Assembly (NCBI RefSeq): GCF_000026545.1
Contig: NC_011601.1
Strand: one strand, 5' to 3'
Origin: Escherichia coli O127:H6 str. E2348/69
Lineage (GTDB): Bacteria > Pseudomonadota > Gammaproteobacteria > Enterobacterales > Enterobacteriaceae
DNA length: 64,000 nucleotides
The first letter of the stretch is position 1. The number at the start of each line of letters is the position of its first letter. Shown piece after piece: positions 27,179-32,182 of the stretch. A program made the position numbers and the translations under genes. Below the pieces are notes generated by a model that did not search any database, was not told where the DNA came from, and saw nothing but the letters and a program-made list of their open reading frames with translations.

Positions 27179-27316
27179 TTCTTAATATTTCCAATAGTGA
27201 ATAGTTAGTTGAAAGATATGCGTGGAAACGCATATGGCCTTAGTTGGTCAGATATATTGGGACTCGCTTTGTCAGCGACGTAGGACGAATGTCCATTGTG
27301 AAAATAGCGGTGTTAC

Positions 27317-27526
<210 letters not shown>

Positions 27527-27543
27527 TTAGTACATGCAACCAT

Positions 27544-27607
27544 TATCACCGCCAGAGGTAAAATAGTCAACACGCACGGTGTTAGATATTTATCCCTTGC
27601 GGTGATA
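27544..27607. promoter_or_regulatory. oR1-oR2-oR3 operators with overlapping pR/pRM (lambda-type)
   Basis: tatcaccgccagaggta, caacacgcacggtgtta, tatcccttgcggtgata read directly; match lambda oR sites. Confidence 0.85.
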
Positions 27608-27614
27608 GATTTAA

Positions 27615-28331
<717 letters not shown>

Positions 28332-28338
28332 CACGTAA

Positions 28339-28776
28339 ATGATTAAAGAACGTATTTCTTATATCATTCCGATTGCGATGGATGAAGGCAACCCAGTAAC
28401 TCCAGTTCTTATCTATGAAATGGATAAAGACTCCCATGAAGTGGATCTATCATTTGGCGCTTTTTTTATCGGCCTTAAGGCTACAAAAAAATATTCCATA
28501 GGCATTGAGGTTTTCAATGCTCAAGAAATACCGATACCAATTGACACAAAACTGTACTCCAACCATAAGTTTTTTACGGTAGCAGAAGCCAACGATGGAG
28601 AAACCATCGTATCAACTTCTATGAGAATTAACTTCCCAAGGGTGAAAATTATCAAGCCTGGGATATTCGAAGTTAGAGCATCACTGGTTAATCCTGATAA
28701 AGGCGAAGTAATTGATGTAAAAAGTTCGTTTTTTGACGTGAAGATAACAGGATCAGTTCGCGATGAGTTTAGATAA
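28339..28776 (+). CDS. Hypothetical 145-aa protein occupying the rexA position
   Basis: ORF track; starts 8 nt after cI stop; no recognisable family. Confidence 0.6.
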   Translation: MIKERISYIIPIAMDEGNPVTPVLIYEMDKDSHEVDLSFGAFFIGLKATKKYSIGIEVFNAQEIPIPIDTKLYSNHKFFTVAEANDGETIVSTSMRINFPRVKIIKPGIFEVRASLVNPDKGEVIDVKSSFFDVKITGSVRDEFR

Positions 28777-29134
28777 CAAGGTTGCTCAGCTTCGTCCAAA
28801 TCAAAACATATCTCGCCCAATTGGACACTATTCCACTGATGATGCATACTCACGGCATGGTGGAGGAAACGGCGGAGGTAACATGCTTGAGGCTAGAGTT
28901 GCAAAGCTAGAGTCTGATGTTGAATACATCAAGCGCGATCTCGCTGAAGTAAAGTCAGATATAAAATCTGTAGATTCTCGTCTGTCAGGTATTGAGACAA
29001 GCATTAGCTCAGCAAAAATCACCATCAAGGCATCTGCGGTCGTTGTCAGTTTCGTGTTCGCATTTTGCGCCTACATTTTTGGAAGTTATGTTTCCAAAAT
29101 CCTTGATGCCTTAAACGGACTCGTTCTTAAGTAA
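28763..29134 (+). CDS. Hypothetical 123-aa membrane-anchored coiled-coil protein occupying the rexB position
   Basis: Gly-rich linker GGGNGGGN, predicted coiled coil, C-terminal hydrophobic helix AVVVSFVFAFCAYIFGSYV; start overlaps upstream stop. Confidence 0.6.
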   Translation: MSLDNKVAQLRPNQNISRPIGHYSTDDAYSRHGGGNGGGNMLEARVAKLESDVEYIKRDLAEVKSDIKSVDSRLSGIETSISSAKITIKASAVVVSFVFAFCAYIFGSYVSKILDALNGLVLK

Positions 29135-29140
29135 CACACA

Positions 29141-29168
29141 ACCCGGCCTCAGCGCCGGGTTTTCTTTA
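29141..29168 (+). terminator. Rho-independent terminator (timm-like) ending the cI operon
   Basis: Hairpin cccggcctcagcgccggg followed by TTTTCTTT. Confidence 0.6.
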
Positions 29169-29324
29169 CCTCACGATCCCCTTCACCCAATAACACATAA
29201 CCAATTGTATTTATTTGAAAATTAATAGATACAACTCACTAAACATCGCAATTCAGATCTCTCGATCACCTCCCAAGCCACACACCCCTGCAAAAAAATA
29301 AATCTATATAAAAAACATACAGAT

Positions 29325-29390
29325 AACCATCTGCGGTGATAAATTATCTCTGGCGGTGTTGGCATAAATACCACTGGCGGTGATACTAAA
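29325..29390. promoter_or_regulatory. oL3-oL2-oL1 operators and pL promoter (lambda-type), firing toward N
   Basis: aaccatctgcggtgata, tatctctggcggtgttg, taccactggcggtgata; -35 ttggca and -10 gatact. Confidence 0.8.
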
Positions 29391-29635
29391 CACATCAGCA
29401 GGACGCACTACTCACCAGGGCGGTGAATATACAACGATTCAAGCAAGAATCTACGGCGCTGACAAAGCGCAATAACCAAAGTGAACTTTGGGGTGTGGTG
29501 AAGGGTTCATGGACGGGAATATGTCGCACGTAAAGCGGCGAGGCCTGCGGGACTATTGCCGAATTGAAGTAGGCCGAAACAGGTCGAAATGGGTCTCCCA
29601 CCTACCACACCACCAAAGTTCACCAGGAGGTCTAT

Positions 29636-30019
29636 ATGACACGCAGAACTCAGTTCAAAGGCAATTCACGTTCTCGTCGTCGTGAGCGTTTAAAGGCAAA
29701 GGCATTAGCTAACGGCGTACTGGCCCGCGAAGAAGCAATAAGTTCAGAAGTATTACACCGCCCTACTCTAAGCAGAGCGCAGATTCAGGCTAAAGGTACT
29801 CACGAAACGCCTGAGCGCATAGAAGACGCTAAGCCAATTAAGTTCATGGCACAGGACGTGATCTGGCAACAGAAAGAATACAGACGCAATCTGGAGCGAG
29901 CGGCCATTGTGTACGCGAATGAGTTTGGACATAAGCAACCAGAAACTGGTGTATGTCTTCCAAACGTAGCCATTTACGCGGCAGGATACCGGAAATCAAA
30001 ACAACTGACAGCAAGATGA
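29636..30019 (+). CDS. N: Antiterminator N-like protein (P22 gp24-type, Arg-rich motif)
   Basis: Arg-rich N-terminus NSRSRRRERLKAKA and C-terminus AIYAAGYRKSKQLTAR resemble P22 gene 24 product; first gene after pL. Confidence 0.6.
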   Translation: MTRRTQFKGNSRSRRRERLKAKALANGVLAREEAISSEVLHRPTLSRAQIQAKGTHETPERIEDAKPIKFMAQDVIWQQKEYRRNLERAAIVYANEFGHKQPETGVCLPNVAIYAAGYRKSKQLTAR

Positions 30020-30077: not shown

Positions 30078-30548
30078 ATGACAAAATCATGGAGCGTACC
30101 TTTTCCTGAATCAGAAACTGAACATGAGGGAATGCCTGTTTTCTGGAGATTCCAGGCGACAGTTGAAGAAGATGGAATCAAAATATTCGCACTTCAATAT
30201 ATAGCTTTTCATCAGACAGAGCATTATGCATGGTTGGTTCCTGCGCATTGGATTGTTAATTTTAAACCAGCACCAAATCAGTGGTTACAGGAATGGAAAC
30301 AAAAGAGAAATAGATATGCAATTAAGAAAGTAGCAAAAAATGCAGAAAGATCTTTTGCATTCCCAACGAAGAAACTTGCCATTGAAAGTTTATTGCGCCG
30401 AAAGAAATACCATTTAATGAGAATCAAACAAGATTTGGCTGTTGTATCAACTCTTGTTGATGGGATGAAGAATATTGATACATCAACACCAGATATTGAA
30501 TATAACTTTGGACACAACCAAGAAACAGAAAATTGGGTATTCTACTAG
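30078..30548 (+). CDS. Hypothetical 156-aa protein in the ral/sieB slot
   Basis: ORF track; AT-rich by eye; followed by hairpin terminator. Confidence 0.5.
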   Translation: MTKSWSVPFPESETEHEGMPVFWRFQATVEEDGIKIFALQYIAFHQTEHYAWLVPAHWIVNFKPAPNQWLQEWKQKRNRYAIKKVAKNAERSFAFPTKKLAIESLLRRKKYHLMRIKQDLAVVSTLVDGMKNIDTSTPDIEYNFGHNQETENWVFY

Positions 30549-30573
30549 GCCGCATAGTCGGCCTTTATTTTTG
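30548..30573 (+). terminator. Putative rho-independent terminator
   Basis: Hairpin aggccgcatagtcggcct plus T-run. Confidence 0.45.
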
Positions 30574-30594
30574 GCATAAACAACAGAGGCTAAC

Positions 30595-30891
30595 ATGGGA
30601 TTTAAAGGTACTGAAGGTAAGTGGGAAATAATGATGGATGGGGATGAGATTAAAATCATCCAGGCAGACTCTCTTGAAAATGGCACAGGCTGGCGTTCGT
30701 ATATTGCAATCTGTGAGGAAGTTCAATGTATTGAAGATGCCAATCTAATAGCGGCAGCACCTGACCTTCTCGAAGCACTTCAGTTATTACTTAATCAATC
30801 CAAAAATAGAACAACGACAACATATCCAGAATGGTATGGAGCTGTTAATAAAGGTCTTGCAGCAATCAGAAAAGCTCTTGGGGATAAGTAA
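30595..30891 (+). CDS. Hypothetical 98-aa protein
   Basis: ORF track; AT-rich by eye. Confidence 0.45.
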   Translation: MGFKGTEGKWEIMMDGDEIKIIQADSLENGTGWRSYIAICEEVQCIEDANLIAAAPDLLEALQLLLNQSKNRTTTTYPEWYGAVNKGLAAIRKALGDK

Positions 30892-31079
30892 TGAAAGTAA
30901 AAATAACTGCTTCTAACACCAGTTTTATTAGTGTTGGTGATATTACAGAAGTAATAACAAACCATGATGGAACCCAAGTTATGTGGTCTGATCTTTGTAA
31001 AAGATATGAGCGAGTTAGTTGGTGTAAACTCGTATGGGGCGTCGAATACGAAGAAATACCTGAAATGCATGACGAATAA
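30891..31079 (+). CDS. Hypothetical 62-aa protein (ATGA-coupled to upstream gene)
   Basis: ORF track. Confidence 0.4.
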   Translation: MKVKITASNTSFISVGDITEVITNHDGTQVMWSDLCKRYERVSWCKLVWGVEYEEIPEMHDE

Positions 31080-31213
31080 GCACTGTGTATTCATTCCAAC
31101 GAGTGAATACACGGAGCAATGTCGCTCGTAACTAAACAGGAGCCGACTTGTTCTGATTATTGGAAATCTTCTTTGCCCTCCAATGTGAGGGCGATTTTTT
31201 TAACGGAGGATAT

Positions 31214-32182
31214 ATGAGTGAAGTAACAGATTTAGTTGTTATTGAAAAAGCAAATGCAATGACTGTATTTCAGTCTGCCGACCAGATTGAAGAAATCCTT
31301 CAAAAGGTTGAACGTGAAGTTATGTCCTTTGTGCCTGATATCACAACGGCAAAGGGCAGAAAGGAGATCGCTTCTCTGGCGTATAAAGTTGCGCAGACGA
31401 AAACATATCTCGATGGCCTTGGCAAAGACCTTGTTGCTGAACTGAAGGAAATTCCAAAGCTAATTGATGCCAACCGCAAGACAGTGCGCGATCGCCTTGA
31501 TGAGCTGAAAGCCAAGGCGCGCCAGCCTCTTACTGATTATGAGGAAGAACAGGCGCGGATTAAAGCCGAAGAAGAAGCTAAGGCAGCAGCTGAAGCTCTC
31601 GCAAAGCAAATTGAGTCTGACCATGAAATAGCGATTTTGATGGATCGCGAATTTGACCGCCAAAGAGAAGAGGCAAGACTCAAAGCGGAGCAGGAAAAGC
31701 GAGAGCATGAAGAACGCTTAAAAAGAGAAGCTGAAGAGAAAGCCAGAGCAGAAGCCGAAGCAAAGGCAAAAGCCGAAATTGAAGCAGCAGCAAGGCGAGA
31801 AGCAGAAGCTAAGGCCGCAGCGGAACGTGCAGAGCGTGAACGCATTGAAGCCGAGCAACGAGCACAGCGCGAAGCAAAAGAGGCAGCAGAACGAGCTGAA
31901 AGAGAAAAGCAGGCGGCAATTGAAGCAGAACGCCGAAAAGCACAGGAGGAGGCTGAACGAATCCGGCGCGAGGCTGAAGCAAAAGAGCAAGCCAGAATAG
32001 CAGAAGAAAAAAGAATCAAGGACGAAGAAGAGCGTAGAGCAAAGGATAAAGCTCACCGGAAAGAAGTAAATAACAAAATACTTGCTGACCTTATCAAGGT
32101 TGGTGCATCAGAAGATGTTGCTAAAAATATCATAACAGCCATCGCAAAAGGCGAAGTATTCGCAACAAAAATAACCTACTAA
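31214..32182 (+). CDS. Coiled-coil protein with long low-complexity E/K/R/A-rich region
   Basis: ORF track 31160..32182 trimmed to ATG 31214 (GGAGGA RBS). Confidence 0.5.
   Translation: MSEVTDLVVIEKANAMTVFQSADQIEEILQKVEREVMSFVPDITTAKGRKEIASLAYKVAQTKTYLDGLGKDLVAELKEIPKLIDANRKTVRDRLDELKAKARQPLTDYEEEQARIKAEEEAKAAAEALAKQIESDHEIAILMDREFDRQREEARLKAEQEKREHEERLKREAEEKARAEAEAKAKAEIEAAARREAEAKAAAERAERERIEAEQRAQREAKEAAERAEREKQAAIEAERRKAQEEAERIRREAEAKEQARIAEEKRIKDEEERRAKDKAHRKEVNNKILADLIKVGASEDVAKNIITAIAKGEVFATKITY

What the first reader, a model, noticed from the sequence alone, without database searches (positions are those of the whole stretch)
28339..29134. Two-gene cassette exactly replacing rexA-rexB in a lambda-immunity prophage: candidate Rex-like exclusion system
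cI, cro, oR1-3 and oL/pL are lambda-type, but between the cI stop (28331) and the timm-like terminator (29141-29168), where lambda carries rexA-rexB, there are instead two unrelated, visibly AT-rich genes. The first is a 145-aa soluble-looking protein. The second is a 123-aa protein with a Gly-rich linker, a coiled coil and a single C-terminal transmembrane helix. They are translationally coupled and, like rexAB, would be co-transcribed with cI from pRM in the lysogen. The cI-to-pL slot is a known home for prophage exclusion functions, and the soluble-sensor plus small-membrane-effector layout parallels RexA/RexB without sequence similarity. I do not recognise either protein as a described defence family.
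Basis: partly seen in the sequence, partly recalled or inferred. Interest (0 to 1): 0.85.

Follow-up and report, generated by a model that had tools for sequence, protein, structure and literature searches.

The report
Uncharacterised two-gene cassette behind prophage repressor
In this E. coli prophage the lambda rexA-rexB genes are cleanly replaced by an unrelated, uncharacterised pair (a small all-beta soluble protein plus a single-pass membrane protein) that sits just behind the repressor gene in many enterobacterial prophages, so it is a good but untested candidate for a phage-exclusion system.

Summary
The window is a prophage of EPEC E2348/69. Homology to lambda stops 4 nt before the cI stop codon and resumes at the first base of the t_imm hairpin. 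An 812-bp insert replaces the 1404-bp rexAB segment.

The insert holds two overlapping genes. A (145 aa) is a confidently predicted Ig-like beta-sandwich. B (123 aa) has a disordered N-terminus, a GGGNGGG hinge, about six heptads of coiled coil and one C-terminal transmembrane helix. Neither resembles RexA or RexB. Neither matches a PADLOC defence model at a meaningful level: A has no hit and B only weak coiled-coil hits. Both belong to PHROGs of unknown function.

The pair is not a one-off. All 67 related loci that could be assessed keep the A-then-B order, even at about 20% A identity. Nearly all place it just after a prophage repressor, of at least 10 different types. A co-varies with B's N-terminal peptide, while B's coiled-coil and membrane tail is shuffled independently.

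The positional analogy to rexAB was already noted in 2008 for the epsilon34 homologues (genes 45 and 44). RexAB, BstA and HigBAC occupy the same slot.

Function is untested. My best guess (0.4) is a lysogen-expressed exclusion or abortive-infection module. Interest is moderate.

The parts
27618..28331 (+). Lambda-type cI repressor (237 aa). This is the upstream gene of the operon. The cassette starts 7 nt after its stop codon.
   Evidence: ORF list. 98% nucleotide identity to lambda cro-cI. Annotated as a LexA family protein, WP_001274760.1.
28328..29139 (+). Non-lambda insert of 812 bp that replaces the lambda rexA-rexB segment (1404 bp).
   Evidence: Homology to lambda ends at 28327 and resumes at 29140.
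28339..28776 (+). Gene A: a 145-aa soluble all-beta (Ig-like sandwich) protein, WP_000588958.1, in phrog_5893 (unknown function).
28763..28776 (+). 14-nt overlap of the A stop codon with the B start codon, consistent with translational coupling.
   Evidence: The same or a similar overlap (8-17 nt, or abutting) occurs in related loci.
28763..29134 (+). Gene B: a 123-aa tail-anchored membrane protein, WP_000050903.1, in phrog_6136 (unknown function). It has a disordered N-terminal peptide (residues 1-32), a GGGNGGG hinge (33-39), a heptad coiled coil (about 41-88) and a single TM helix (about 92-110). It is weakly XhlA-like.
   Evidence: Of 134 family representatives, 132 have one C-terminal TM and 118 have the Gly-run plus coiled-coil start motif.
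29140..29168 (+). Intrinsic terminator homologous to lambda t_imm. It marks the end of the cI-A-B transcription unit.
   Evidence: Terminator scan: 8-bp stem with 6 GC pairs, followed by a T run. Lambda homology starts here.
29326..29387 (+). Lambda-type oL3-oL1 operators and pL. This is the downstream boundary of the variable slot.
   Evidence: Operator-like TATCACCGC-type repeats are readable in the sequence. A promoter-like site lies at 29359-29387. 88.5% identity to lambda 35826-35550.

Best explanation
The cassette is a lysogen-expressed two-gene module read through from the repressor promoter. Its most likely role is to protect the lysogen against other phages, by exclusion or abortive infection.

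A is a cytoplasmic Ig-like binding module that acts as sensor or regulator. B is a tail-anchored, coiled-coil, XhlA-like membrane protein that acts as effector.

Proposed mechanism (inferred, not shown):
1. A holds B inactive by binding B's disordered, A-specific N-terminal peptide.
2. A phage-derived trigger that engages A releases B.
3. The coiled coil of B drives its C-terminal helices to oligomerise in the inner membrane. This dissipates membrane potential and aborts the infection.

Shown here: the gene structure, the protein architectures, the conserved pairing, the linkage to repressor genes, and the modular evolution.

Inferred: expression in the lysogen, the A-B interaction, membrane damage, and any anti-phage effect.
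For: 1. Position. A starts 7 nt after the cI stop. A scan found no terminator before 29140, and only two weak promoter-like matches inside gene B, no more than shuffled sequence gives. The insert sits exactly where lambda has rexAB.

2. The same slot holds experimentally shown defence systems: RexAB, BstA (PMC8585504) and HigBAC (10.1101/2024.02.24.581848).

3. The pair is conserved as a unit.
- All 49 IMG/VR loci that could be assessed have a B ORF at the end of A. 48 of them have a repressor-like ORF just upstream, falling into 10 repressor clusters.
- Each of six B-led look-ups shows a small ORF just upstream of B. Each of three distant-A look-ups shows a B-type partner just downstream. Each of three distant-B look-ups shows an A-family ORF upstream, at HMM E 3e-31 to 8e-11.
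- All but two contexts, both in tail-gene clusters, are repressor-linked.

4. The same A/B pair occurs behind different repressors. It therefore behaves as a mobile moron rather than as part of the immunity switch.

5. Modular evolution. A identity tracks identity of the B N-terminal peptide (Spearman 0.95) but not of the B C-terminal part (0.20). 19 of 54 pairs with A at least 90% identical have B tails below 40% identical. At least 6 tail types are joined at the conserved Gly hinge.

6. Effector plausibility. B has a single C-terminal TM after a 6-heptad coiled coil. It has a weak but recurrent match to Pfam XhlA: 7 of 31 members at E<=0.001, best 1e-5. XhlA is a putative holin reported as essential for PBSX lysis (PMC6834076).

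7. The prophage has its own lambda S/R/Rz lysis cassette elsewhere, so B is not the phage's lysis accessory.
Against: - There is no functional datum of any kind.
- A has no PADLOC hit. B has only weak hits over its coiled coil (CorA-like E 0.004, LmuB E 0.03).
- The XhlA match is marginal (E 0.002 for the window protein) and lies largely over coiled coil.
- A fused A-linker-B AF2 model gave no confident A-B interface. The B N-terminus had pLDDT below 50.
- The co-variation of A with the B N-terminus could simply reflect physical linkage next to a recombination joint.
- Genes behind repressors can have non-defence roles. RexA itself tunes the lysis-lysogeny switch (PMC11077077), and 434 Hex blocks repressor cleavage (PMC3564112).
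- Most other occupants of this slot are also unknown to PADLOC, so guilt by location rests on only three validated systems.
Confidence: 0.4

Rival explanations
1. The module is a superinfection-exclusion device that blocks genome entry or another early step at the inner membrane, rather than killing the cell. B is a membrane anchor that positions the Ig-like A at the cytoplasmic face, where it interferes with an injection or entry component.
For: B is membrane-anchored, and A has a generic protein- or ligand-binding fold. Prophage-encoded small membrane proteins that block entry are well known, for example P22 SieA (PMC10461980). Expression from the repressor operon fits this role.
Against: Almost all of B and all of A are predicted to be cytoplasmic: there is no signal peptide, and the TM lies at the extreme C-terminus with a tail of about 10 aa. 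Little is therefore exposed where entry occurs. Free shuffling of B's TM tail argues against a specific membrane-protein target.
Confidence: 0.15
2. The module is a regulator of the prophage's own life cycle. It could tune induction, the lysis-lysogeny switch or lysis timing, as RexA does for the lambda switch and Hex does for 434 repressor cleavage. It could also be a lysis accessory related to the XepA-XhlA pair of Bacillus PBSX.
For: The module is tightly linked to repressor genes of many types. RexA and Hex are precedents for switch modulators in this slot (PMC11077077, PMC3564112). In PBSX a beta-sandwich protein (XepA) is encoded together with xhlA in the lysis cassette (PMC6834076). That parallels the order of an Ig-like A followed by an XhlA-like B.
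Against: Neither protein has a recognisable DNA-binding domain. The same pair works behind unrelated repressors, which is hard to reconcile with a repressor-specific partner. The cassette is separated from the late lysis genes, which are complete. A shows no sequence similarity to XepA or YomS in the PDB, and its fold match is generic.
Confidence: 0.15
3. The module is a toxin-antitoxin-like addiction cassette. B is a membrane toxin and A its protein antidote. It stabilises the prophage, or simply persists selfishly, with no role in phage defence.
For: The pair consists of two small overlapping genes, with a soluble protein ahead of a potentially membrane-damaging one. TA-type cassettes (HicA/DUF1902 and HigBAC) occupy the same slot in other lambda-immunity prophages (10.1101/2024.02.24.581848).
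Against: Toxicity of B is unproven. A resembles no known antitoxin and lacks a DNA-binding or degron-like module. Many TA systems in this slot in fact act as defence (10.1101/2024.02.24.581848), so this rival overlaps with the main explanation.
Confidence: 0.1
4. The module is a host-fitness or virulence moron unrelated to phages, for example one that modifies envelope stress tolerance or host-interaction traits of the lysogen.
For: The genes are annotated by NCBI as 'hemolysin XhlA'. The host is a pathogen. Morons such as lambda lom and bor serve the host (PMC7067206).
Against: The 'hemolysin' name comes from a marginal Pfam match. Neither protein has a secretion signal. The family is spread across commensal and environmental Enterobacterales prophages. 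Only 15 of 5426 complete E. coli genomes carry this variant.
Confidence: 0.1

Closest known systems
Lambda RexA/RexB exclusion system
   Same: It occupies the identical genomic slot, between the cI stop and t_imm/oL. It is presumably transcribed with cI. It has two genes, with a soluble protein first and a small inner-membrane protein second.
   Different: There is no sequence similarity. RexA is a 31-kDa two-domain, RdgC-like DNA-binding dimer and RexB is a four-TM protein (PMC11077077). Here A is a 145-aa single-domain beta-sandwich, and B has one C-terminal TM preceded by a coiled coil. Exclusion activity has not been tested.
Salmonella phage epsilon34 genes 45 and 44 (also g341c and NM-3)
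   Same: These are true homologues. A is 74% identical. B is homologous through the Gly hinge, with 61% identity over residues 1-67. They lie directly after the phage repressor and before OL/PL. [quoted passage not shown]
   Different: The repressor and immunity type are different. B carries a different coiled-coil and TM tail, for a total of 103 aa.
Bacillus subtilis PBSX XhlA (Pfam PF10779) and the xepA-xhlA-xhlB-xlyA lysis cassette
   Same: B shares the XhlA architecture: a short protein with a coiled coil and then one C-terminal TM. It gives weak Pfam XhlA hits. In PBSX the beta-sandwich protein XepA is encoded in the same lysis cassette as xhlA (PMC6834076), which echoes the order of an Ig-like A followed by B.
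   Different: The Pfam match is marginal. A shows no sequence similarity to XepA or YomS. The cassette lies in the immunity region, not next to a holin or endolysin, and the prophage has its own S/R/Rz genes. The host is Gram-negative.
BstA and HigBAC, other validated occupants of the slot downstream of cI
   Same: They share the position and the presumed repressor-promoter expression. They recur behind many different repressors (PMC8585504; 10.1101/2024.02.24.581848).
   Different: The proteins and mechanisms are unrelated. BstA is a single large DNA-associated protein with an aba self-immunity element. HigBAC is a toxin-antitoxin-chaperone system. A gave no PADLOC hit and B only weak coiled-coil hits.
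Actinobacteriophage Rex-like pairs (Sbash gp30/31, CarolAnn, Butters)
   Same: They are prophage-expressed pairs of a cytoplasmic and a membrane protein, placed near the immunity repressor, that exclude heterotypic phages (summarised in PMC11077077).
   Different: They are RexA/RexB homologues or analogues with multi-pass membrane partners. I did not compare them directly with A or B. A and B show no similarity to lambda RexA or RexB.

Membership tests
RexAB (lambda exclusion system) | RexA-type protein: about 279 aa, a two-domain DNA-binding dimer | tested here: not met
   BLASTP of A against lambda RexA gives E=10. A is a 145-aa single beta-sandwich. The RexA description is from PMC11077077.
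RexAB (lambda exclusion system) | RexB-type protein: about 144 aa with four transmembrane helices | tested here: not met
   BLASTP of B against RexB aligns only 49 residues at 27% identity, E 0.004 for the single comparison. B has one hydrophobic segment.
RexAB (lambda exclusion system) | Located between cI and t_imm/oL, on the cI strand | tested here: met
RexAB (lambda exclusion system) | Excludes T4 rII and other phages, with loss of membrane potential | not testable with these tools
   This requires infection assays.
XhlA family (Pfam PF10779) | Significant match to the family profile | tested here: inconclusive
   The window protein gives E 0.002 and 18.7 bits. Of 31 B-family members, 7 reach E<=0.001 and 15 reach E<=0.1, with a best value of 1.2e-5. 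No NCBIfam model reaches its cut-off.
XhlA family (Pfam PF10779) | Short protein with a coiled coil followed by a single C-terminal TM | tested here: met
XhlA family (Pfam PF10779) | Encoded in a lysis cassette next to a holin and an endolysin | tested here: not met
   The cassette is in the immunity region. The lambda-type S, R and Rz genes are at 18585-19744 on the other strand.
XepA/YomS (PBSX and SPbeta beta-sandwich lysis-cassette proteins) | Sequence or specific fold similarity of A to XepA or YomS | tested here: not met
Known anti-phage defence systems (PADLOC-DB v2.0.0) | Match to any defence-protein model | tested here: not met
   A gives 0 hits. B gives only CorA-like at E 0.004 and LmuB at E 0.03, both over the coiled coil.
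A/B repressor-linked module (family defined here; epsilon34 gp45/gp44 type) | An Ig-like A of about 130-160 aa followed immediately by a B with the order N-peptide, Gly run, coiled coil and single C-terminal TM | tested here: met
A/B repressor-linked module (family defined here; epsilon34 gp45/gp44 type) | Sits directly 3' of a prophage repressor gene, on the same strand | tested here: met
   In the window the gap is 7 nt. 48 of 49 assessable IMG/VR loci show this arrangement, as do the genomic contexts.

The most novel reading that the evidence does not exclude
The A/B pair is a previously unrecognised and widespread family of abortive-infection systems in Enterobacterales prophages. An Ig-like cytoplasmic sensor is tethered to the N-terminal peptide of an XhlA-type tail-anchored protein. 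On sensing a phage it licenses coiled-coil-driven assembly of a pinholin-like membrane lesion. The interchangeable membrane tails and the hypervariable sensor would be products of an arms race. The module may be a domesticated relative of the Gram-positive XepA-XhlA lysis pair.
Probability: 0.25. Interest if true: 0.75.

Novelty: new variant of a known kind. Interest (0 to 1): 0.55.

Why it matters
If the pair does exclude phages, it would add a non-homologous and structurally much simpler analogue of RexAB, the oldest and still mechanistically unclear abortive-infection system. It has a single-domain sensor and a single-pass effector. It also offers natural chimeras, with the same sensor joined to different tails and the reverse, that make sensing and killing separable in experiments.

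It would give a function to two PHROG families and to hundreds of genes annotated as 'hemolysin XhlA' or 'hypothetical' in enterobacterial genomes.

It would also strengthen the case that the slot downstream of the repressor is a general defence hotspot whose other occupants deserve screening. If it turns out instead to regulate the prophage, it would still explain why so many unrelated repressors carry the same passengers.

Tried and rejected
1. Diverged rexA/rexB. Rejected: there is no similarity, and the folds and topology differ.

2. Known defence family. PADLOC gives nothing for A and only weak coiled-coil hits for B. NCBIfam shows only noise. Pfam shows nothing for A and a marginal XhlA match for B.

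3. Solved or annotated structural relatives of A.
- Foldseek against AFDB50 and BFVD finds only uncharacterised proteins of about 135-145 aa in enterobacteria, Firmicutes and phages.
- PDB sequence searches are empty.

4. A-B docking. An AF2 model of an A-(GGGGS)6-B fusion with a paired alignment of 16 sequences folded A. It left the B N-terminus disordered and gave no confident interface (mean pLDDT 62.6). This is inconclusive, not negative.

5. A related-loci scan with the wide A alignment failed because no block was conserved enough. The narrow alignment worked.

6. The two ST64B genes downstream of cI, reported as highly expressed under peroxide and nitric-oxide shock in D23580 (PMC7067206), might have been homologues. 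They are not: no A-like or B-like ORF lies downstream of ST64B cI.

7. Guilt by association through other slot occupants. Of 7 proteins from 5 alternative cassettes, only one pair hits a PADLOC candidate model, PDC-M24. The location argument therefore rests on RexAB, BstA and HigBAC from the literature.

8. Literature searches for the protein accessions, the PHROG ids, XhlA together with anti-phage, and screens of lambdoid prophage accessory genes found nothing on this pair.

9. Degnan et al. 2007 (Mol Microbiol 64:232), the key survey of wild lambda-immunity phages, is not held. I know it only through citing papers.

Full report
**Source and coordinates.** The window is 100% identical to the chromosome of enteropathogenic E. 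coli E2348/69 (O127:H6) and covers a lambdoid prophage. cI (237 aa) is at 27618-28331. Gene A (145 aa) follows at 28339-28776 and gene B (123 aa) at 28763-29134. A and B overlap by 14 nt. A G+C-rich hairpin with a T run lies at 29140-29168, and a pL-like promoter among lambda-type operators lies at 29326-29387.

**Replacement of rexAB.** BLASTN against lambda shows 98% identity from cro to 4 nt before the cI stop (window 27303-28327). Homology resumes at 88.5% exactly at the rexB stop and t_imm (29140-29426). An 812-bp insert therefore replaces lambda's 1404-bp rexAB segment. Homology ends again before nutL. The N gene is of the H-19B/933W/epsilon34 type; I recognised this from the sequence, and it agrees with the epsilon34 annotation. 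A is AT-rich (37-39% GC against 45-48% for cI), while B is only slightly so.

B belongs to phrog_6136, also of unknown function. Its parts are:
- a low-complexity N-terminal peptide, residues 1-32;
- a GGGNGGG run, residues 33-39;
- a stretch with perfect 4-3 hydrophobic spacing from L42 to I88, read directly from the sequence;
- a single hydrophobic segment at about residues 92-110, followed by 13 residues.

AF2 models residues from about 41 to the end as one long helix and leaves the N-terminus disordered. The Pfam XhlA match is marginal: E 0.002 for the window protein, 7 of 31 family members at E<=0.001, best 1.2e-5. This match is the source of NCBI's 'hemolysin XhlA' label. Neither protein resembles RexA or RexB. 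RexA is a 31-kDa two-domain DNA-binding dimer and RexB a four-TM protein (PMC11077077).

**The pair is a family, not a singleton.** The identical cassette is in 15 of 5426 complete E. coli genomes. 14 of them carry cI, cassette and oL together. Salmonella phages epsilon34, g341c and NM-3 carry homologues; in epsilon34 these are gp45 and gp44, and A is 74% identical. There too the pair sits directly after a different repressor and before OL/PL/N.

- A scan of IMG/VR returned 51 loci. In all 49 that could be assessed a B ORF starts at the end of A. 48 of them have a repressor-like ORF immediately upstream, falling into 10 sequence clusters: lambda cI, several S24/LexA-type repressors and RacR-like HTH proteins.
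- Look-ups led by B homologues in Enterobacter, Salmonella and Serratia gave the same picture.
- Distant A relatives at only 19-25% identity are still followed by a partner with the Gly run, the 'ML.RV..LE' coiled-coil start and a C-terminal TM.
- Distant B relatives are still preceded by an A-family protein, at HMM E 3e-31 to 8e-11.
- The same A/B pair occurs behind different repressors.
- There are two exceptions. In Providencia (L013) and in another contig (L073) the pair lies among tail genes, once next to an Arc-type repressor.

A profile search found 383 B-family clusters at 90% identity, and this is a truncated search. The exhaustive profile search with the narrow A alignment (A1) found only 19 representatives, so A diverges much faster than B's core. 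Of 134 B representatives, 118 have the Gly-run plus coiled-coil start motif, 132 have a single C-terminal TM and none has a second TM.

**Modular evolution.** I compared 27 distinct A/B pairs.

| Comparison | Result |
|---|---|
| A identity against identity of the B N-terminal peptide | Spearman 0.95 |
| A identity against identity of B after the Gly hinge | Spearman 0.20 |
| Pairs with A at least 90% identical whose B tails are below 40% identical | 19 of 54 |
| Pairs with A below 35% identical whose B tails are at least 75% identical | 8 of 120 |

At least six different coiled-coil and TM tails are joined at the Gly run. This explains why nucleotide homology to epsilon34 stops at base 549 of the cassette. 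The unit made of A plus the B N-peptide, and the B tail, are therefore separately exchangeable modules. This fits an A-binding peptide attached to a generic membrane effector. It can also be explained by plain linkage next to a recombination joint.

**The slot.** About 617 complete E. coli genomes have a full-length lambda-type cI. Only 99 carry rexAB and 15 carry this cassette. Other occupants between the same flanks include an SDH Clp-fold protease, PIN plus NYN, DUF1902 plus HicA, DUF1828 plus a hypothetical protein, and further hypotheticals. Nearly all of these are unknown to PADLOC. The literature already calls this a mosaic or defence locus. Degnan et al. 2007 made this point, as cited in PMC8585504 and PMC7067206. 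BstA (PMC8585504) and HigBAC (10.1101/2024.02.24.581848) have been validated there in addition to RexAB. Villafane et al. [quoted passage not shown] The positional analogy is therefore prior art. I found no functional study.

**Mechanism.** The following is shown:
- two real, coupled genes placed to be read with the repressor;
- a cytoplasmic Ig-like protein and a tail-anchored coiled-coil membrane protein;
- obligatory pairing and linkage to repressor genes;
- independence from repressor type;
- a complete lambda-type S/R/Rz lysis cassette elsewhere in the prophage.

I infer, with confidence of about 0.4, that this is a lysogen-expressed exclusion or abortive-infection module. In this model A senses a phage cue and controls B through B's N-terminal peptide, and B oligomerises through its coiled coil to damage the membrane. 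XhlA is described as a putative holin essential for PBSX lysis. The same cassette also encodes a beta-sandwich protein, XepA (PMC6834076). I treat this architectural parallel as a lead only, because A shows no sequence similarity to XepA or YomS. The AF2 fusion model gave no confident interface.

The rivals are an entry block (0.15), a regulator of the prophage's own switch or lysis (0.15), a TA-like addiction cassette (0.10) and a host-fitness moron (0.10).

**Verdict.** This is a genuine, well-delimited and widespread but uncharacterised cassette. It is analogous to RexAB in position and layout and unrelated to it in sequence and fold. It is a worthwhile experimental candidate in a known hotspot, not yet a discovery. 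I score interest at 0.55 and classify novelty as a new variant of a known kind.

Noticed in passing
window 17575-18123 (+): An ORF of about 180 aa lies on the strand opposite to the surrounding late genes, wedged between Rz/Rz1 and the small terminase subunit. It belongs to phrog_30882 (unknown function) and has no PADLOC hit. It looks like a reverse-oriented moron.
   Followed up: partly
window 29426-30019: Homology to lambda ends at 29426, just past pL and before nutL. The N gene at 29636-30019 is of the H-19B/933W/epsilon34 type rather than lambda N (I recognised this from the sequence; compare the epsilon34 gp43 note). A second mosaic joint therefore lies immediately downstream of the cassette.
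   Followed up: partly
L075, L076, L077, L078, L079 (other E. coli lambda-immunity prophages): The same slot between cI and oL holds at least five other cassettes: an 88-aa plus 216-aa pair, an SDH Clp-fold serine protease, PIN (pseudogene) plus NYN, a 129-aa hypothetical protein, and a 185-aa protein plus DUF1828. Only the last pair hits a PADLOC candidate model, PDC-M24. The slot is a pool of untested candidates.
   Followed up: partly
L013 3023-3869 and L073 3001-3751: In two contexts the A/B pair is not behind the immunity repressor. It is embedded among myovirus-type baseplate and tail genes, in Providencia next to an Arc-family repressor. This suggests a second moron site for the same module.
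   Followed up: no
window 30078-32182 (+): Three early-left genes downstream of N all fall in PHROGs of unknown function and have no meaningful PADLOC hit. They are a 156-aa protein, a 98-aa protein and a 340-aa Glu/Ala/Lys-rich coiled-coil protein.
   Followed up: partly
window 19987-20142 (-): tRNA-Thr(TGT) and tRNA-Asn(GTT) genes sit inside the prophage, between the Q antiterminator region and the holin gene.
   Followed up: no
AFDB50 and BFVD hits to the A model: Many uncharacterised proteins of 130-145 aa share the A fold at Foldseek E 1e-9 to 1e-6. They come from Streptococcus, Lactobacillus, Listeria, Paenibacillus and Clostridium, and from Anoxybacillus phage A403. I could not check whether they sit next to XhlA-like genes or repressors in Gram-positive prophages.
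   Followed up: no
NZ_CP059840.2 (E2348/69), second match to the cI query: The cI query finds two places in the E2348/69 chromosome. This suggests a second prophage in the same strain with a related repressor or repressor fragment.
   Followed up: no
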